This document shows positions 18,122 to 49,254 of a stretch of DNA of 64,000 bases, in pieces. Position numbers and translations under genes: made by a program. Source of the stretch: Fimicolochytrium jonesii. Its lineage: Eukaryota. Location: positions 682,001 through 746,000 of the forward strand of contig NW_026515675.1 of the NCBI RefSeq assembly GCF_025526975.1, written 5' to 3'. The notes below the pieces were generated by a model. That model was not told the origin of the DNA, ran no database searches, and saw only the letters and a list, made by a program, of their open reading frames with translations. Each line of letters starts with the position of its first letter. The stretch's first letter is position 1.

Positions 18122-19350
18122 ATGGCCAGCACTACCACTGATTACAAGTTCATGGGATGGGTCGCCAAGGACAAGGAGTCCTTCGGAAACCTCGTCTGGG
18201 AAGAGTATGAGCCCAAGCCGTTCACAGACGACGATGTCGACATCAAGGTATTATTTCATTTCAGGATCCCATATGAAAACCTCGAATGCTAACTGAACAT
18301 GTGTCGCAGATTACGCACTGCGGAATCTGTGGATCGGACCTGCACACCATTCGCTCTGGCTGGGGCCCGACGTTGTACCCTGCAGTGGTGGGTCACGAGA
18401 TCGTTGGAACGGTCGTGAAGGCTGGCACGAATGTGAAAAACGTCTCGGTCGGTGACCGTGTTGGCGTTGGAGCACAGTCCGACTCTTGCCACGACTGCTC
18501 GAGCTGCAAGGCTGGTCAGGAGTCTTATTGCGATAACGGGTTCTTCGGTACCTACAATGCTCTGTACAAAGACAACAGCAAAAGGTAATACTACCCGTCT
18601 TTGCGTTGCACCGAAGCGATCGATTGCCATTCTCAATGTTCCAACCCCTTTGCTTGTGAAAACAGCTACGGCGGTTACGCGGATTACGCCCGCCTCCCTG
18701 CTGCCTTTGCCTTCAAGATCCCCGATGCCATTCCTTCCGAGGTTGCCGCCCCTCTACTTTGCGGCGGCGTAACGGTGTTCTCCCCGCTGAAACAGCTGAA
18801 CGCCGGACCTGGCAAGCGTATCGGAATCATCGGCATCGGCGGTCTCGGGCACCTGGGCTTGCTGTTCGCGAAGGCTATGGGCGCAGAGCCCGTGGCCATC
18901 TCCCACAGCAGCCGTAAGAAGGAGGACGCCGACAAATTGGGCGCGGTGCAGTTCATCTCGACCAAGGATGACAAGGACTTTGCCAAAACGTATCGCCGTA
19001 CCCTCGATGGCATTGTCTGCACCGCCAACAACGCCGACATGCCCCTCTACGACTACATGGAGCTTCTCAAGCCTGGAGGACAGATCATCTTGGTCGGACT
19101 TCCCGAAGAGCCTTTCCCGGCGTTGAACATCTTCCCTCTGGTGCACAACAACACATCAATCAAGGGTTCACTCATTGGGGGCTCGGCGGACATAAAAGAG
19201 ATGTTGGACGTTGCCGCGAAAGCAAACGTGAAGACCTGGGTTGAGACACGTTCAATGGAAGATGCCAACCAAGCGGTTATTGATATGGAGGATGGAAAGG
19301 CGCGATACCGATATGTGTTGGTGAACGAGAAGCATGCCAACAAGTTGTAG
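18122..19350 (+). CDS. Zn-dependent NADP(H) alcohol dehydrogenase (Adh6/cinnamyl-alcohol dehydrogenase family), 3 exons
   Basis: CGICGSDLH, GHEIVG, GDRVGVG..C..C..C..C structural Zn site, APLLCGGVTVFSPL, GIGGLGH, ISHSSRK (NADP-type), RYRYVL. Confidence 0.95.
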
Positions 19351-37782: not shown

Positions 37783-38699
37783 GCTGGACCAACGCAGCCT
37801 TGCCACACTATTAGGGGCAACCAGACGAGCAGGATCGAAAGATGATTTTGAGCGTGTTTTGGCTGGTGGCTCGTGTACATTTCGAGGTCCGCCAACCTTG
37901 TTACCGAATAGACCAATAAACTGGCACTTTTTGTCTTCTTTGATTCGATGGGATTTCCTTCAGTGGACCTAATTGAAACCGTGGCCCTAACAAGTCCGAA
38001 CAAGGAGGGCGGCATCCGGAGGGATCTCTGCAATGGACATCAGTTATTCTTCCCCGCTAACTCATTTGGGTTTGAAGCGAAAGCCTCGATGTTGAAGAAT
38101 ACATGGGACGGACATTTATCGAATACCGTCCAGGTGAGGGGTTTTTGCTTACCGCCGTAATCGGTATCAAGCATCGATCTCCTCACATCTCCTCACATTG
38201 CCCGTTCCTTCGCACTCCTAATGTGCAGAGGTGATGTGCATATCCCGGTTACCTCAAGCTCTTCTGAGCTGCAGATATCGGATCCTCCAACGGGTATTGC
38301 AAACCTCACCTCATAATATCTTTTCCCATAGCGTCCAGCGGAGTTTCAATACATGGTCTCTGACGGCAACTGCAAAGGTGTGCGTATATGTGTATGCGGG
38401 GATAAGTAACTGTTAACCGACGTGTATCGTGGCGGCAAGCCAATTCAGACGGCTGTAACGGCGACTTCACAACGTCGACTTTCAACCTTGCACGTTTGCG
38501 GAACCCTGCTTGCCATCCATATTGACATCGTCTGTCCACCTTCCTACTCCGCCAGACGGTTCGATTTCTTGTCTGGTTGCGCTTCAGAAGAAGGGGCAGA
38601 CAGGCCACCGACCCACTCGATTTCTCGTACACTGGAGAAGGAAGCGTGAGAACGCGCCGCCAACCATCTTGACCTCGATCAGTAACGACAGACTCAGGA

Positions 38700-41600
38700 A
38701 TGAACGTCGGAAAGAAGGACGAGGACTCCGGTACGATTGCTTTTTACGGCGGAGACGTACTCAGCGTTTTGCTGCCCCTTCTAACGTGCGTCCAATGCTT
38801 GCAGATGCCGGTCTCTTCTACCACATTGACAAGAGCACTGTGCTGCAGGAGGCGCGCGCATTCAACGAAACCCCCATCAACGCGCGAAAATGCAGGCTCA
38901 TTCTGACGAAGCTGGCCTTCCTCTTCTACCAGTCGGAGGTGTTTCAGTCGAAGGAGGCCACGGAGACCTTTTTCTCGATGAACAGGCTGTTTTCGTCTCC
39001 AGATGTATGTGTGTAGTCTTCTGGCGATCAGTTGTGTGGGTGTGGACCTGTCACCGCTGAAGTTACTGATGAAGGGTTTCTCGATTGTTCGTAGACCGCA
39101 CTTCGTCAAATGATGTATCTCCTTATCAAGGAGCTGGCTGGGATTGCAGAAAACAGTTTCATGGTCATGCAGAGTATCATGCGAGACATGAACGCAAAAT
39201 CGGATGTCATCTTCCGTGCAAATGCCATCCGTGTCCTGCCAAAGATCGTCGATGTACGTATGCCCCGTTCGAAAGATTTCAATTCCAGTAATTTAACATT
39301 GGTGTCGTTTGCAGAGCACGATGTTGCAAGCGATTGAGCGATTCATCAAGCAAACGATTGTGGACAAAAACCCTAGCGTTTCGAGTGCTGCATTGGTTTC
39401 TTCCATGCACCTGTTCAACGCCAACAAAGAGGTTGTCAGGCGCTGGGCGAATGAAGTGCAGGAGGCGATGAACAACAGGGGCTCGATGACGCAGTATCAC
39501 GCAGTGGGCTTGCTCTACCAGATCCGACAGCACGATAGGATGGCGGTCATTAAGTTGGTGCAGAACTATTCTCGCGCGTCGTTGAGGTCGCCTCTTGCGT
39601 ATTGCATGTTGATAAGATTCGCATGCAAGATCATGGAGGATGAAGAGCCTGGGTACGCTACTTTCACCCCCTCCTCACCGTCGCGAACCTTGGTGCTGAC
39701 GGAAATTTGCAGACAACGATCCATGTATGAGTTGCTGGAGGGTTGGCTCAGACACAAGCATGATATGGTGGTGTATGAAGCGGCCCGCGCTATCTGTAAC
39801 TTGCGCGGAGCAACATCGCAAGAGCTGCTTCCGGCCGTCTCAGGTAAGCTTTGAATAGCAGGTCGAATAAAGATTTCGTTTGCTGACGAGCTTCGATGCA
39901 GCCCTTCAATTGATGCTTGTGAATAGCAAGCCCACACTACGCTTTGCCGCCATCCGCACGCTCAATAAGCTTGCAATGACCCATCCACAAATGGTCTTCC
40001 CCTGCAACATGGACATGGAGAACCTCATTACGGATACGAACCGTAGCGTTGCGACGTTTGCCATCACCACGTTGCTGAAGGTATTGCATGGCAACATGTA
40101 TGTTTTACGGCTGAACAGTATCTCACAGCGAGTTGCTGCATGCAGACCGGAACGGAAGCCAGCGTCGACCGCCTCATGAAGCAAATCACGGGCTTCATGA
40201 ACGAAATTTCCGATGAATTCAAAGTCATTGTGATCGACGCCATTCGCTCGCTTTGCTTGAAGTTCCCTTCGAAACAATCTTTGATGTTGAACTTCTTGTC
40301 CAACGTCTTGAGGGATGAAGGTGGCTACGAGTACAAGCGCGCCATTGTGGAGGCAATCTTCGATATTGTTCACCATATTCCGGAATCCAAGGAGTTTGGT
40401 AAAGTTCGTCGTTTTGCAGTCACCGGTGCGGAAGCCGTCGGCTCATACATACCCGTTTTAAGCTTTGTCGCACCTTTGCGAGTTCATCGAAGATTGTGAA
40501 TTCAACAAACTGGCCGTTCGAATCTTGCACCTTCTCGGAACTGAAGGGCCAAAGACACCCAAAGCGTCGAAATACATTCGCTACATCTACAACAGGGTTA
40601 TTCTGGAGAATGCTACAGTGAGAGCCGCGGCGGTGACAGCCCTTGCACGCTTCGCCGTGAACCTGCCTGAGCTCAGAGAACGCGTGAAAGTACTACTCAC
40701 GCGTTGTTTGGACGACAACGAGGATGAAGTGCGCGATCGGGCCATCATGTATCTCCGAATCATTGACAGTGACGAGCTGTGCAGGAAATACGTCGCGAAT
40801 GGTATGCGACCGTCGTTGGATTATAATTGTTTGCATGTACTAATCGCCCATTGGGCGTCAGACACGACATACAGCTGGCCTTCCCTGGAGCGCAACCTTG
40901 TGCATTATCTGAACGACCAGGCTGCACACACGCAGAGTTTCGACATCTCCACAACGCCGATAATCACGAAAGAGCAGGAGTCGGCCGAGCGATCTCGTAA
41001 GTTTTTAGATGATAGGGGCTTCAGTGTCGCCATGGCTTCTAAATTGTTTCCCAACAGGTCAACTCACCGCAGCCACCGAGGCGATAACGCCCGCCCTACG
41101 CAGCAACGCCACCCCCACTGCAACTTCCCAACCATCGGCAGCGCGTGGCGCAGATGCATTCAGCGGAGATGCCCAGGCCGGATATGCCGCCGCCATGGAC
41201 AAGGTTCCAGAACTGGCCAATCTCGGCCCTCTTTTCAAATCCTCGACACCAGTGCAGCTTACCGAGGCGGAAACAGAATACGTGGTCACTTGCGTCAAGC
41301 ATATCTTTGCCTCGCACGTCGTTTTCCAGTTCAATTGCCGCAACACTCTTAACGACTCGATTTTGGAGAAGCTAAACGTCCAAATGAAGATCGAGTCCTC
41401 CGATGACGACAACGTGGATGCTCTAGTCCCCGAATTCTCCATCCCCATCCCACAACTCATCTTCGACATTCCCCAAACCGCTTACGTCGTGTACCGGCGA
41501 GAAGGGGGCGCCTGCCCCACCGCGTCCTTCTCCAGCTCGTTGCACTTCTTCGTCAGGGACTGTGACCCGGCTACGGGTGAACCGGACGACGATGGACAAG

Positions 41601-42056
41601 GGTATGAGGATGAGTACCTCATCGAGGCCGTAGACCTTGTCGTGGCGGACTACGTGCTACCGACCTACGTGTCGGACTTCAGGAGGAACTGGGAAGATAT
41701 GGGGCAGGACTCCGAGGTGGTGGAGACGTATCAGTTGACAAATATGGCCAACATCAAAGGTATGTCGCTTCATTGCGGCCCACTGGTATTGTGTTACATG
41801 AAGCTAAGGCATTGTTCAATTAGCCGCGGTCACCAACCTCATCCAAGCCCTCGGTATGCATCCCAGCGAAGGGACAGATAACGTCGTCGACAAGGCGACC
41901 ACCCATACGTTGGCAATGGGAGGTATCTTTGCTGGAGGTCACAAGGTCTTGACCCGGTGTAGGATGTTGATTGGAGGGGAGGGTGTGACCGTTGAGATTG
42001 CGGCGCGGTGCAAGAACCCGGAGGTTGCGCAGAGGATAGTGGACGCCGTATGCTAG
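38700..42056 (+). CDS. SEC21: Coatomer subunit gamma, multi-exon
   Basis: [94 protein letters not shown]. Confidence 0.97.
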
Positions 42057-42202
42057 GACAGCCAGTCGCCCGATCCGTCCCTCTTTCCTGTAATCGATGT
42101 TTTCCAGAAATGTTTCTTCTGTCGCACAATGCGTTTGCGGATTGCGTACTTTGAGGCCTTCTCATCACAATATATATAAGCGTTGTACCTCTCCTCACAA
42201 GC

Positions 42203-42660
42203 AGGTGGTTGACCACCTTCATAGGACTCACGAATTCAGAACTCGAGGATGGAATTACAAACAAGGCACCGTATGTATTTATTTCACGAAGTGCCTATTA
42301 GCTCGCTCCAGGAGCGGCCTACATGCAAACGTATTCAAAGGCTTCTCCATGCCCTCCAGGTGCGAGGGGGGAAAGGAGCAGGGAAGGGGAACAAGCTTTC
42401 GCGGAACCAGCGCCAGTTGCGCCTTTGGTCCCGACGGCCGACCGGAAGCGCAGAACTGAGGAGCCATCTGTCCGGCATGGCATATCCCCATGCTCGGCTA
42501 ATGCGCATGCTCGTCTGATATACGGACCGTCAGTTTGCGGCGGTCCGAATGGCGCAAACTGCGCTGGGTTATTCGCGGCTGAATGTCCGCTTCGCTGAGT
42601 TAGCGCCCAGTCATGTGCTGGTCGTCCTCGTTCTGATTTTTCAGTGAATTTGTGTTTCGA
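42203..42660 (+). ncRNA. Candidate structured non-coding RNA of unknown family
   Basis: Nested long-range helices (42229-38/42645-54; 42244-51/42623-30; 42400-23/42551-77), several local hairpins, G-U pairs favouring the + strand, TATATATAA at 42171. Confidence 0.45.
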
Positions 42661-42744
42661 AAGTTCGAGGGCAGTGAGCCGTGCGACTTTGGTAAGCCAT
42701 TTTGGTAAGAAACGCAGATTGAACTGCTCGACGCAACACTCCCC

Positions 42745-45700
42745 TTAGCCCCACAAATTCGCATTGCGAGACGGCCCAGCCGCGGCGCTGAACCCCAAAA
42801 TGGGCGGCTGAGGCTCGTATTCAGGCTTGGACCGAGTATTGGCGCTCGCTGCGCGAGCCATTGGCGATACGAAAGCATCCCTTCCAGCCCCCATCCAAGT
42901 GAGTCCGCTGGACGAGGGGCCTTGAACTTTGTGGGCTTCTGTCCAAGCGGGAGCCGACTGTTGCCTTGCGGCTTCTGCATCTACAGGCTTGCCGAATGGA
43001 TAGGTGTACTCTCCTGACCACGCCGGTGTGAGATGTCCTGGAGGAGCTGAGTGAAGCTGACTGTGTGCGGTCACTCCGTTGTTTGACAAGGGAAAAGCAA
43101 CCGCGGATGTCGATGGAGGCGATGCATGTGTGTTCAGTCTGCAACAAGAATCAGAAAGATATGTTACTGTCATCCTTACGGAGAGAATAGACGGCACGTT
43201 CGCACCTCGGGAGACTTGGAGGCCCCATGCCGGGCGGGAAGAGTGGTACAGGGAACGTGTCCGCGTTCTCACATTCATCCATCATGTTTCCAAGCGGCGG
43301 CTTCATTCTAGCGTGGTCCCGGATGCCGGACTGTGCACTGCGGGATGGACCCAGACCCAGGAACGCCAAAGTATCGACGGCATCGGAGCTTGTTCCGAAT
43401 ATGCGTCCGGTATCAGGCGACTGGCTCACTTGCGGGTGTGCGGGCGACTTTCGGGGTACAGACATCGGTTGAGCTCCACGGGCACCCTGGAATAAAAACG
43501 ATGAGGAAAGTCTCAAACAAGAGCGAGGTCATGGAGCGCGACTTACAAAAGCGAAGTTGATATCGGCCTCAGTTGGGAGAACAATTTTATGACCAAACGC
43601 GTCTTCATCTACCCGGGCTTCCTGATGGTAAAAGGTGGCCGACGGGGAGAGGCTTTCTTGCAAATCCCCGCCTTGTGGCAACCATATTTGGGCTTGCGAA
43701 GCAGTAAGTGGAGTGGTAGGAGACGCCAAATGGCCAGAATGTGGTTGTACGTTTGTCTTGGAGGTATGACCAAATGATGAAGGTCCAGTGGAAGAAGTCC
43801 ATATGCCATCTTGAGACAGAGCCCGACCACCCGTAGTGCCAGTGGTTTGCGGGCCTTCTCTCGACATTTCCGAGAATCCGCTTCCTTGTGTACTGTTGGG
43901 ACCATTGTTGGACCGATGATTGGTTATAGCTGTATCGAGAGGTATCCCGCGGACGACATCTTTCAGAACCTCCACCGGAAGGACATGCTGCGGCACCGGG
44001 GCCTGAGGACTAACTACGAGAACCACTGTTTTGGAGGATTTCTTTGCAGTCAAGAAAAGCACCTGGACGAACGAGTCGAATCAGTATCCGTCAAGTCACG
44101 CAAGATTCAATGATCAATATACCTGGTGCTCGATCCAGAAAGAACAATCATTAACAATGCGCAGAAGCAATTGGCCAGTGCCCGAGATCGGGCTATGGGT
44201 GATGTCACGAATCTTGGCAGCGGGAAGAGACTTGAAGTATGGTCTGAATGGCAAATAATGTTCCAACGCCGCTTCTTCCGTGGTCATCCTCTCGGGATCC
44301 AAACGATCATCGTCAGAATGGATCGGCAAGCAAGATATCAAGGCTGAATAAAGTGAGGCCAGGCCCCTCCGGAGTGCGTGATTCGACGAGAGGCGCTCGG
44401 AATTCGAGCAGAACTCCGCCCTCACCCAAGCCATAGCAGTCAAGATAACGTTCAATCGGTCATCCCAACCCGCTGGAATCTCCCGTAAGACTTCCCCATT
44501 CGCGTCACCGAGCTCCATAATGTCCGATGTGGTTTGATCCGCCACCATGTTGATGAACTCCATGAAAAAAGATCGTACGGCTGAGTAGAGTTCTTTCTCG
44601 CCTTGTGACATCTGTACCATGCCAGCCCCTACGATCATCATCTGATGGACACTTTTGTGATCCAATTGTGACCTGATGACAGAAGATCGCATCGAATCAA
44701 GCCAAACTGCTTGTACAGCCAGAAAACTGCTCAAACTATGGGATCATAATAAGTTCGTCAGCGCCTGTACTTTGTTATGAACGACTTTGAAGTGATTACC
44801 TTCGGGTCCGGCCGACAGCATTGGCAACCAGGACAACAAACTGATCCAAAACCGCTTTCGGTCTGTCGGACGCCGCGCCAGACAAGGGAGACATCTTGAC
44901 ACGTTTCTGCACTTTATCGAACAGTATTTCCAGATTCTCCAAAGCTGTCGCGAATGGTCGCTCGATCAGAAGACTAGTAGGACATTGAATGAGTTCACTT
45001 GTTCAACTCAAATTGGCCATAGTCAGACCAACCTTCGCATGTAATTTTCCACAGCCTCGGGCTCGCTGCCCTCGTAAGAGGAGATCACAGCAAGCTGATT
45101 GTAGGGATTCCCATTCGTAGGGAGTACCAGAGCGGCAAGATTGTAGAATAGCTTGGCCAATCCCCACTTTGACTCCTTTCTATCCGCGTGGATCTCATGA
45201 TAACGAGCTAGACATTGAAGGTCGAGTTGAGTGAAGGGCGTCGCCAGGGATGGATCAGACGCGCAAGTTCAACTCACACAAATCGCCGAGATAAATCAAC
45301 GTTCGTTGTCCAGTGGACACCATTCGCTCCAAAGTCCCTTCTGCTAGCTGGAGTCGAGGTTCCGTGGAATCTGCAAGATTACAACGGTCAGATTCTGGGC
45401 CTCATTCTTGGCATGCTGGAATATCACCCCGTTACATTCTTGGCCAGTGATGATTAGAAGCTCCTTCATAACCTTCCGAAATCTTCCCTTCAAGTCATAT
45501 CGCTGATCCAATTTAAAGATCATCTGAGCATAGAACGCCGAAGCTTCAAACAAGAACGCTCGGAAGGCCGCTGTTAAGTTTCGTAGCTCTTTCTTGTCTT
45601 CTGGACGTCCAGATCGACGGACGCGCCCATTTACCTGTGGAAGGGCAGTTAGACTCCGACCCAAAGCAGTTTTGCAATGAGGGATCACTGAAACACTTAC

Positions 45701-46012
45701 ATCACGGTGAAGACGGCGAAATTCCTCGATGGCTTTGTAGTGCACCAGCTTCCACAACGTGCCTTCAACGTCTGTTTTCGAAGCCAGGTCATAGTCAAGC
45801 AGAATGATCTGTTCCAGGCGGTCTCGCAGCTCGAGTCGAACTTCTACGACGTCATCTTCGAACAAGCTGCCGCCTGGGCGTTTCAGGAGCTGCTTATATT
45901 TCCGTTCTAGCTCAGCCGTCGAGCTGCTGGCTCAAAGTCAGTAACGTACACGCAAATAACTCAGCGAGACGCAGGTTCCAAACCTTGGAATTGTCGGTGA
46001 CAAGCGGTTCAT
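42745..46012 (-). CDS. Est1/SMG7/Ebs1-family 14-3-3-like (TPR) protein with low-complexity C-terminus and no visible PIN domain
   Basis: EQIILLDY..DVEGTLWKLVHYKAIEEFR, LIYLGDLSRY, FYNLAALVLPTNGNPYNQLAVIS, PFATALENL; start at 46012 inferred from an in-phase first exon. Confidence 0.85.
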
Positions 46013-46170
46013 TCAAGCGGCCTCTGTGCCGTTTCTTTTCTGTAGGAGTCGACAGGACGCCTCCCACTGCTGCAGCCGATGCGAAGGAGCTGAGGGTTTC
46101 CAACTCACCAAGTTCACCAAACTGCCCTTCACAAGTTCCAATGGCCAATGTCTAAGCAATGTGCAAGCAG

Positions 46171-46259
46171 GCGCGGACGTGACAGAGGCTTTCTGTAAGC
46201 TTAACAACCTTGACATGATCATCCGAAGTCACGAAGTGAAACAGGATGGCTATGAAGTT
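46171..46259 (+). pseudogene. Isolated fragment of PPP-family (PP5-like) phosphatase exon
   Basis: GADVTEAFCKLNNLDMIIRSHEVKQDGYEV; begins just after a CTAAG..CAG intron end; no other phosphatase motifs nearby. Confidence 0.75.
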
Positions 46260-46600
46260 GGACTCGCCGACACTACTTTCTCGGACGAAAGTCGAAAGAT
46301 TTTGTTTCGTGCCATCTATGACAAATACCCCTCCCCTCTTACCACATACAACCAGCATCCCTTTTATTCTTTTCAGACGTTGTTTTCCCTCAACGAATAA
46401 ATATCATTATTGACTTGAGTCTTACCCTCAAAATTTGTCGTCTCCCTTGGTATGTACAAACACTCAGTACGCTGGATATGTGGGGAGCCCATTGGCTGCG
46501 TTTCGGCCCTTCTCCATTCCGGTCTTTTTAGCAGATCTTCGGCACTACTCCCCAGTGGATTCTCCGTCCCTCGACTTTGACTACTGCGAGACCTCGATGC

Positions 46601-47044: not shown

Positions 47045-47400
47045 GACCGCCGGACATCATTCTGGTGTGTCCACCTTTCAATTTGTCTGAGCCCCCACCG
47101 TTGAGATATAGGAGCATGACGAATTTGCTTTGCAAGTATCCATCGATCGCCGGTATTATGTAGGGAATATCATAATGAGCTCGGAACGGACCGCGAAACT
47201 CCTCCCAGTCTGTAAAGCCAGAGATGAAGGGTCGATCGAATTTCCCAATACCAGATCGGTTCGCCGTATTTGTTGCGTGGGGTGCCGTAACCGACCCTCT
47301 CCGGAAGCGCCCGCAGTTGCGAGATTTCCTCGGCGTCCACCAGAGGATCGATGACGACAGTGCCGGCGGTATAGATGCTTTCCGTTGTGAAATCACGGAG
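47045..47400 (-). pseudogene. Truncated, frame-broken prolyl-4-hydroxylase-like 2OG-Fe(II) oxygenase remnant
   Basis: VIDPLVDAEEISQLRALPERVGY in one frame and FRAHYD..SKFVMLLYLN..LKGGHTR in another; the distal His/Lys part is absent. Confidence 0.55.
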
Positions 47401-47880
47401 CGCCTCCGTCAGCGCCGCATTCAATACCGGTCGATGAAGCACGTTCGCAAGGAAGGGTGGGTGGCCCGGGAGACGCTAGGGTGCAGCACCATCAGTGACG
47501 TCTTGTGAAAGTCAGAGTGGGATTTGCGTGCAAAAGACAGTCCGTGCACCGTTGTCATCGCGGAGGATAGCATAAGAAGCCACAGTGAGTTAACCGCCCA
47601 AGCTGCGACAGCATTGCACCATCTTGGTATTTGATCAGATGATGTGAACCAGCGATGAAGCATGGTGTGCTTGCGTTCTAAGACGTACTATTCCTTAGTC
47701 GTAAAAGAGGAAGGGTGCGACTGCGAAAGAGTAATGGTGTGGCCGGACGTCCTTCGACGCGTTGTACATGTAGTATCATCGATTTCGGATCAGAACGCGT
47801 TTGGTACTGTACATAGAAGGTACTAACATCCATATCTGGAATTGTATGCGTGGAGGGCGAACGAGGTTAGGAGTGAATCT

Positions 47881-48140
47881 TGTCGTAATGCCCCCATGTC
47901 TTCCCTTTCGAAGTGTATCTTGAGGTCTTTCTTGGTAGCTTCCCTTTCTGCAGCGTCTGATGCGACGATTTGTGAGGTCGTCAACGTATACGGCGATGAT
48001 CACAAATCCTGTCGCCGTGCGCTTGTAGTACAGCGCCGAGTCGTAACTCGATACCGTGAATCCTCTTTCTTGTAGGTAGGTGTCGAGGACTTTGTTCCAT
48101 AGTCGTGGGGATTGCCCTTCCGACTGTACAACGAGCGCTT
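47881..48140 (-). mobile_element. Degenerate Ty1/copia reverse transcriptase fragment
   Basis: KRSLY /fs/ QSPRLWNKVLDTYLQERGF..DSALYY..IIAVYVDDL /fs/ ..KKDLKIHFEREDMG; two frameshifts; no LTRs seen. Confidence 0.9.
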
Positions 48141-49254
48141 CCTTTGACAGCTTCGACAGCTCAGGAATGCGAGTGATTGCATTGACGGGGCTTGGAGAGC
48201 CTGGCGAACAAAATCACCATTCCCATCGTCTCGTACCCAATCGTTGATATCCTATATAGCATCTGACTACATTGTGAGAGCAGATCCAGCGCCGGTTACC
48301 ATCCACTTACAGAGTTTGAGAACTCTGCTATCCTGAGGGAAACGGCGATCGTGAAACTCTCATTTCTAGCCTACCATGACTCGGCAGCACCGACGGCGGT
48401 CTGTCGGTATTTCAACAAGTGAAGCGCTAACGCATCTATGGCATGACAATGCTGATGAAGGTCGGGGCTCTTTCGTATCGCATAGAGTAAAATTTTGGTA
48501 GTTTTGAATTGCAGAGAGTTTCATTACGAGCTCATCGTAGCAGCGATGCGGGCAAGGAGCTGGGAGAAAAGCGATGATGGGAGCGTGGTCAAACTCCTTA
48601 CTATGATCAAGAAAAGTCGAAGAGTGTTGTATTGAAACTGAACATTGACTGTATCGCATCGCGTGCTCCTCAAAATGGAGGCCTCAGGTAGGAGGTCGGG
48701 CCAGATCCCGAGTCCAAAAAGCTAACTTATACGCCATGCCCACGGTCACCCGGCAACTCAAAAGGAAGACGCAGCCACGGGCTCTCAATATTCTGTAAAT
48801 GTCAGTCAAAATCCTGTTCCTGCTCTTTCGAACACCGCAATCACCAGCTGGCATAAGAGAACTGCGCCATAGTACCTGACCAACCCACGTCAGTATATCG
48901 GACCATGCGTCTAACGCTTTTTATGGTGGCATGGAAATCCTGGAAGGTGGACCTGAGAATTTTGGAACGTTCTTTGTGATGATGTCTTCGAGGCTTCGCT
49001 GGTGTGAAAGTTTGATGCGAATCCCACCGCGTTGACATGACGTTTCTTGTGGACAGCGACGGAGGACGGTGAACACACAGCCGCCAAGGTGAGAGCAAGG
49101 AAGAGAGAGGCTTGACCAACTCTACAAAAGCACTCATCGTTCCCATCGTCCTTCATCGTTCAGTGATTGTCATTCCACGCTCAGCAGCACTGTAGATACC
49201 CAACGTCACACTCCCACACGCTCAGTTCACACTTGCATCCCGCACATCACAACC

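What the first reader, a model, noticed from the sequence alone, without database searches (positions are those of the whole stretch)
42203..42660. ~430-nt highly base-paired intergenic element: candidate unannotated ncRNA between SEC21 and the Est1/SMG7-like gene
Seen on the + strand: closing stem CACGAATTCA(42229-38)/TGAATTTGTG(42645-54) continued by CGAGGATG(42244-51)/CGTCCTCG(42623-30). A long inner helix 42400-42423/42551-42577 extends imperfectly to 42383-96/42578-93. It is capped by a multibranch of hairpins (TTTGGTC/GACCGGA, GCATGG/CCATGC, CGGACCGTC/GGCGGTCCG). Further hairpins are AGGTGGT/ACCACCT (42203-18), AGGCAC/GTGCCT (42264-96), CGCTCC/GGAGCG and CCAG/CTGG. Several pairs are G-U on + and would be A-C mismatches on -, which favours a + strand RNA. 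TATATATAA lies at 42171, and T5 and Sm-like AATTTGTG / ATTTTG-GTAAG lie at the 3' side. I could not match the diagnostic motifs of SRP, RNase P/MRP, U1-U6, U3 or hammerhead, and there is no CTAACCC telomerase template. Inference: a divergent or new structured RNA.
Basis: partly seen in the sequence, partly recalled or inferred. Interest (0 to 1): 0.7.

Follow-up and report, generated by a model that had tools for sequence, protein, structure and literature searches.

The report
Unclassified folded RNA candidate, chytrid fungus
A 440-base stretch between two genes of a chytrid fungus codes for no detectable protein, is predicted to fold unusually tightly and lies between a TATA box and a run of T's, so it may be a separate RNA gene of no catalogued family, but no transcript or relative was found and chance is not excluded.

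Summary
The helices are in the sequence. The region folds better than shuffles (z -4.69) and is the most stable of 552 same-length windows per strand. It sits in the 688-nt non-coding gap between the stops of convergent SEC21 and EST1/SMG7-like genes of a Spizellomycetales chytrid. With ends fixed blind to structure (TATA+28 to first T4) it still gives z -4.09 and ranks first of 27 such units. The signal is modest, however: a protein-coding stretch in the same window reaches z -4.41. Rfam and motif tests for telomerase RNA, U3, RNase P/MRP, SRP, snRNAs, hammerhead and A/B boxes were negative; a small-protein model was rejected. No relative and no expression data were obtained. Best reading (0.42): a stand-alone, probably Pol III, ~440-nt scaffold RNA; main rival: ordinary 3' ends plus chance (0.28).

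The parts
38795..42056 (+). SEC21 / coatomer gamma gene (9 introns), stop at 42054-56
   Evidence: protein P0001 maps 38795-42053; introns from spliced match; Pfam COP-gamma
42171..42179 (+). TATATATAA; likely TATA box, or a 3'-end signal of SEC21 (115 nt after its stop)
   Evidence: only TATATATA on the + strand of the window; TATATA-like words also lie in 3'-end-like contexts
42203..42218 (+). 5' hairpin, 6 bp, about 30 nt after the TATA box; predicted start about 42199-42203
   Evidence: pair probability 0.75-0.98; start site inferred
42236..42636 (+). Closed core: 15-bp closing stem 42236-52/42622-36 with a 2-nt bulge
   Evidence: MFE and centroid agree, z -4.22; probabilities 0.85-0.90
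42253..42263 (+). Unpaired A/C-rich linker directly inside the closing stem
   Evidence: unpaired
42264..42296 (+). Hairpin AGGCAC/GTGCCT with U-rich 13-nt loop
   Evidence: probability 0.97-0.98
42298..42603 (+). Inner domain: helix 42298-304/42597-603, a two-hairpin branch 42305-79, and the long arm
42383..42593 (+). Long G+C-rich arm (61% GC) capped by three hairpins
   Evidence: z -3.84 on its own, 0 of 200 shuffles; GC
42607..42621 (+). Small hairpin just before the 3' strand of the closing stem
   Evidence: probability 0.8
42637..42641 (+). T5; first run of 4 or more T after the TATA box; candidate Pol III terminator
   Evidence: T-runs in the gap at 42100, 42637 and 42700 only
42645..42654 (+). 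3' strand of the alternative outer stem, holding the Sm-like AATTTGTG
42688..42709 (+). 13-nt tandem duplication with two donor-like GTAAG words (42692, 42705)
   Evidence: donor scores 8.7 and 7.1 against the window's own introns
42745..46012 (-). EST1/SMG7-like gene (899 aa, 9 introns), stop at 42745-47
   Evidence: P0121 maps 46012-42748; Pfam EST1 and EST1_DNA_bind

Best explanation
The non-coding gap between the two convergent genes likely holds its own RNA gene, predicted to be read on the + strand by RNA polymerase III from the TATA box to the run of five T's, giving an RNA of about 440 bases that would fold into one end-clamped branched domain and likely act as a protein-binding scaffold. 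Shown: the gap, the TATA word, the T5, the absence of any earlier T4, the helices and the folding excess. Inferred: transcription, polymerase, ends (about 42200-42640) and a La-protected oligo-U 3' end. A scaffold role is chosen by elimination: no template, catalytic core, guide boxes or usable Sm site was found. Cutting of the long arm by Dicer, as for Neurospora milRNA precursors, is a less likely use of the same transcript.
For: Gap of 688 nt between stops, negative coding score in all six frames. Lowest z of 552 windows of 458 nt on each strand, on a grid in register with the element; shifting by 115 nt gives -0.6 and -1.8. Ends fixed blind to structure (TATAWA+28 to first T4): lowest z of 27 folded units out of 40 (13 outside 60-600 nt not folded), z -4.09 with 100 shuffles. 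Core prefers + strand (z -4.22 against -2.39). TATA-only Pol III promoters with T-run terminators exist in a fungus (milR-1, PMC3547838, passages).
Against: A coding control reaches z -4.41. Ensemble diversity and number of firm pairs are no better than in several other top windows. A long-range pair just before the T-run also occurs in 6 of the other 26 units. G-U asymmetry not seen. No A or B box beyond chance. TATATA-like words also occur near gene 3' ends here. No homologue in 80 SEC21 loci, none close, nor in phage or plasmid records.
Confidence: 0.42

Rival explanations
1. No separate RNA: the gap holds only the 3' ends of the two genes, the TATA word is a 3'-end signal of SEC21, and the fold is the upper tail of chance, sharpened by boundaries picked by eye.
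For: Coding stretch with z -4.41 in the same window. Other top windows are as well defined. T5 and Sm-like words occur 0.8 and 0.5 times per 700 nt. No conservation seen.
Against: Still first of 27 with structure-blind ends. Only 2 of 13 refined competitor windows reached z -3.5. The fold fills the gap without entering either gene.
Confidence: 0.28
2. The structure lies in a long 3' untranslated region, most plausibly of the EST1/SMG7-like mRNA (- strand, ending near an AATAAA at 42283-78), and serves feedback control by nonsense-mediated decay; or of SEC21 on the + strand.
For: The - strand also folds (z -3.77). AATAAA lies 461 nt after the stop on -. Plant SMG7 is controlled through its 3' UTR (PMC3711448, abstract and section list).
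Against: AATAAA occurs 18 times in 128 kb, about what base composition gives, mostly not after stops. The core is weaker on - (z -2.39, 3 of 100 shuffles).
Confidence: 0.12
3. A Pol II, Sm-class RNA of 455-505 nt: either telomerase RNA with an unusual template or another snRNA-like RNA, its 3' end made at the Sm-like site or by spliceosomal cleavage at GTAAG as in fission yeast TER1.
For: Terminal stem followed by U-rich words. Donor score 8.7 and a possible 57-nt intron 42692-42748, within the 57-70 nt range of 17 of 18 real introns. Sm site plus 5' splice site in TER1 (PMC4299874, passages). A ~500-nt fungal TER with Sm site exists (PMC12506658, passages).
Against: No + strand match of unit+1 length to the complement of TTAGGG, its single-base variants or 12 other listed repeats; no U-rich pseudoknot (0 found; 31 of 40 shuffles had one or more). 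No P6.1-like hairpin on +. The chytrid Batrachochytrium uses TTAGGG (PMC11797018, passages). Acceptor at 42748 scores under 3. The Sm-like words are imperfect.
Confidence: 0.09
4. A decayed fold-back or MITE-type mobile element whose terminal inverted repeats give the closing stems.
For: About 24 nt of interrupted inverted repeat at the ends (42229-52/42622-54). Both strands fold. A retrotransposon remnant lies 5 kb away.
Against: No second copy in 64 kb. No target-site duplication seen by eye at either end. Nested inner branches are not needed by such elements.
Confidence: 0.06
5. A small protein gene: TATA, first ATG at 42249, intron 42271-42359, 86 codons.
For: First ATG after the TATA box has A at -3 and G at +4, and the spliced frame stays open to 42598.
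Against: Best donor-acceptor pair is matched or beaten by 366 of 500 shuffles, and the codon score is negative. No homologue in 5.8 billion proteins or 1.84 billion representatives, none in Pfam, and only weak Atlas scores.
Confidence: 0.03

Closest known systems
Neurospora milR-1-type Pol III genes (PMC3547838, passages)
   Same: TATA-like promoter without A/B boxes, T-run after a folded body
   Different: Here about 440 nt and multibranched, not a short hairpin; no small-RNA data; polymerase not shown
Compact fungal telomerase RNAs (Malassezia, about 500 nt, PMC12506658; fission yeast TER1, PMC4299874; passages)
   Same: Size, terminal stem, U-rich words and donor-like sites at the 3' side
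   Different: No template, pseudoknot or P6.1 found; Sm-like site imperfect and paired
RNase P / RNase MRP RNA (features recalled, not from a call)
   Same: Ends clamped by a stem before an oligo-U; hairpin after the stem; small hairpin before the closing strand; long branched arm
   Different: No CR-I or CR-V on +, so no P4 catalytic pseudoknot; no Rfam match
Fungal U3 snoRNA (PMC5832005, first of three parts read)
   Same: TATA-driven; 5' hairpin; a CTTCATAGGA word that recalls the U3 5' end (resemblance from memory)
   Different: Boxes A', A and C absent; C' only with a mismatch; no Rfam match

Membership tests
Any Rfam 15 family | Covariance-model match | tested here: not met
   0 at gathering score in 64 kb; only chance-level hits (E 0.33-8.8) in the gap
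Telomerase RNA | Template of more than one telomere repeat | tested here: not met
   None on + for TTAGGG, its single-base variants and 12 other listed repeats; this organism's own repeat is unknown
Telomerase RNA | Pseudoknot with U-rich loop and A-rich strand | tested here: not met
   0 found by a simple scan; 31 of 40 shuffles had one or more
Telomerase RNA | P6.1-like hairpin (4 bp, NUNGN loop; pattern recalled) | tested here: not met
   None on +; two on - outside the element
Telomerase RNA | Unpaired Sm site or spliceosomal 3' end | tested here: inconclusive
   Imperfect Sm-like words, good donors, weak acceptor
U3 snoRNA | Boxes A' TACTY, A GYATCW, C' WYGATGA, B AGYGA, C RTGATGA (PMC5832005) | tested here: not met
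   A', A and C absent on +; B only beyond the T5
RNase P / MRP | CR-I and CR-V forming P4 (patterns recalled) | tested here: not met
   No match on +; a CR-V-like word on - at 42616 has no fitting CR-I
SRP RNA | Helix 8 motif with GNRA loop; Alu UGUNR (patterns recalled) | tested here: not met
   No helix-8 pattern and no GNRA- or UNCG-capped hairpin on + inside the element
Spliceosomal snRNAs U1, U2, U5, U6, U11, U12; snR30/U17 | Invariant functional words (recalled) | tested here: not met
Hammerhead ribozyme | CUGANGA, stem II, GAAA | tested here: not met
   CTGAGGA at 42456, but neither GAAA (42371, 42659) closes a stem II (and inspection); no Rfam hit
tRNA or tRNA-derived SINE | tRNA fold; A and B boxes | tested here: not met
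   ARAGORN 0; boxes no more than chance
Pol III TATA-type gene | TATA about 30 nt upstream, no internal T4, T-run at end | tested here: met
   sequence pattern only
Pol III TATA-type gene | Pol III occupancy or inhibitor sensitivity; discrete transcript | not testable with these tools
   No RNA holder listed
Conserved structured RNA | Covariation among homologues | not testable with these tools
   No homologue obtained
MITE | Many copies, TIR and target-site duplication | tested here: inconclusive
   Single copy in window; whole genome not held

The most novel reading that the evidence does not exclude
A new class of mid-size structured RNA in chytrid fungi, conserved across Spizellomycetales and forming an RNP with no counterpart in yeasts or animals; within it lies the small chance that it is the unfound chytrid telomerase RNA with an unusual repeat.
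Probability: 0.2. Interest if true: 0.75.

Novelty: new variant of a known kind. Interest (0 to 1): 0.38.

Why it matters
Non-coding RNAs of early-diverging fungi are thinly catalogued; my paper searches (listings only) showed no paper describing a chytrid telomerase RNA or this locus. A 440-nt RNA outside every Rfam family would be a new fungal RNP, and the predicted ends make it cheap to test. If it proves to be a structured 3' UTR of the SMG7-like gene, it would bear on feedback control of nonsense-mediated decay in fungi. Until a transcript or covariation is shown it is a lead, not a discovery.

Tried and rejected
No whole genome is held for this window, so genome-wide copy number, the telomere repeat and the presence of the standard RNAs elsewhere were not tested. 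Sequencing runs: no RNA holder listed. Three low-share runs of one study (X1-X3) cover 41883-42109 with 4 differences in 227 nt and a 36-nt partial match at 42110-45, and nothing of the element; this says nothing on expression. Metagenome scan with a SEC21 alignment: 80 loci kept of 133, best segments 22-55% identity, no match to the gap (best E 0.81); Rfam on 19 of those 80 loci: 0 hits. Phage and plasmid records: no match. Earlier findings: no look-alike. Small ORF and inner intron rejected; a Pfam YoeB hit on the unspliced frame is below cut-off (17 against 27 bits) and taken as chance. Removing the putative intron in a script weakened folding (z -4.78 to -3.04). A crude gene finder could not give reliable gap sizes for comparison. 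The bacterial promoter/terminator scan found nothing and does not apply to a fungus. At 200-nt scale the element ranks only sixth of 319 windows. Supplements of the papers were not opened; those of PMC4133162 and PMC5832005 may hold basal-fungal RNA alignments that bear on the family tests.

Full report
Setting. The flanking genes match annotated proteins of the Spizellomycetales chytrid Fimicolochytrium jonesii (coatomer gamma P0001 at 100% identity; EST1-domain protein P0121). Mapping them on the window puts the SEC21 stop at 42054-56 (+) and the EST1/SMG7-like stop at 42745-47 (-), so the gap between two convergent genes is 42057-42744, 688 nt. The element fills most of it and scores as non-coding in all six frames under a Markov model trained on the window. 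It has no second copy in the window.

Observation. All 14 helices checked pair as written. The + strand folds at z -4.69 and the - strand at z -3.77. Pair probabilities give this outline on +: a 5' hairpin (42203-18); a 15-bp closing stem (42236-52/42622-36); an unpaired A/C-rich linker; a hairpin with a U-rich loop (42264-96); an inner domain with a two-hairpin branch and a long G+C-rich arm capped by three hairpins (42383-42593, z -3.84 alone); and a small hairpin before the closing strand. The 3' signals therefore exclude one another.

How unusual. Against a regression on 690 shuffles, the element is the most stable of 552 windows of 458 nt on each strand; the grid was set in register with it, and 115-nt shifts give -0.6 and -1.8. 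Refining 13 other top windows in 10-nt steps brought two to -3.5 or below, one of them to -4.21; that one is alcohol-dehydrogenase coding sequence with z -4.41 by shuffles. Ensemble diversity is better than 90 of 93 shuffles and all 40 random windows, but no better than several other top windows. To remove the choice of boundaries I defined units from every TATAWA+28 to the first T4: 40 units, 27 of 60-600 nt folded, 13 left out for length. The element had the lowest z (-3.03 with 25 shuffles; next -2.36) and -4.09 with 100 shuffles. A long-range pair just before the T-run also occurred in 6 of the other 26, so that feature alone carries little weight. The G-U argument failed a Watson-Crick-only test (3 G-U, 3 A-C); the core still prefers + (z -4.22 against -2.39).

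What it is not. Rfam gives nothing at gathering score and only chance hits in the gap. Motif scans were negative for U1, U2, U5, U6, U11, U12, snR30, SRP helix 8 and RNase P/MRP CR-I and CR-V on + (patterns recalled), and for U3 boxes A', A and C as given in PMC5832005 (first third read; scan). ARAGORN finds no tRNA and A/B boxes are at chance level. Telomerase RNA was the most attractive candidate: compact fungal TERs with an Sm site exist (PMC12506658, passages), TER1 ends at an Sm site plus 5' splice site (PMC4299874, passages), and two donor-like GTAAG words lie at 42692 and 42705. But no template, pseudoknot or P6.1 was found, and the one chytrid repeat I found in print is TTAGGG (PMC11797018, passages). 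This organism's repeat is unknown, so an unusual template is not excluded. The EST1-domain neighbour is not evidence. A small-protein model was tested against the 18 real introns of the two neighbours and four protein resources and rejected.

Relatives and expression. None were obtained. No genome is held; the one metagenome scan returned only distant SEC21 loci with no match to the gap; no RNA holder is listed and the three runs found do not reach the element. These blanks are not evidence either way.

Most likely working. TATA at 42171-79, a hairpin starting about 30 nt later, no T4 for about 460 nt and then a T5 right after the closing stem fit a TATA-driven Pol III gene; such promoters without A/B boxes are shown for Neurospora milR-1 (PMC3547838, passages), although no Pol III promoter motif was found in a Mucorales survey (PMC4133162, passages). 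The product would be a ~440-nt RNA with an oligo-U end. With no template, catalytic core or guide boxes found, a protein-binding scaffold is the role left (inference, 0.42). Rivals: ordinary 3' ends plus chance (0.28); a structured long 3' UTR, for which plant SMG7 is a precedent (PMC3711448, abstract; 0.12); a Pol II Sm-class or telomerase RNA (0.09); a mobile-element remnant (0.06); a small protein (0.03).

Verdict. A real, well-bounded folding signal in a non-coding gap, with plausible gene punctuation and no family. It is worth a cheap comparative or Northern test, but it is unproven. Interest 0.38.

Noticed in passing
window 18463-18920 (+): Coding exons and an intron of a zinc alcohol dehydrogenase gene fold at z -4.41; used as a control, but a structured mRNA element is not excluded.
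   Followed up: partly
window 45960-46400 (+): An open frame holds a short stretch that looks like the C-terminal part of a Ser/Thr protein phosphatase (resemblance from memory; no Pfam hit), antisense to the start of the EST1/SMG7-like gene.
   Followed up: partly
window 47170-48213 (-): Broken retrotransposon remnant; RVT_2 match just under the cut-off (E 3.3e-7).
   Followed up: partly
window 42688-42709: TTTG+GTAAG occurs only twice in the 64 kb, both here as a 13-nt tandem duplication; a 57-nt + strand intron 42692-42748 would overlap the stop codon of the - strand gene.
   Followed up: partly
window 43139-43205 (-): The annotated last intron of the EST1/SMG7-like gene has an atypical donor (GTGCGA, leave-one-out score 0).
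   Followed up: no
window 38459-38800 (+): The open frame upstream of the annotated SEC21 start holds a KKDEDSG word shared with the N-termini of related chytrid SEC21 proteins, so the annotated start may be too far downstream.
   Followed up: no
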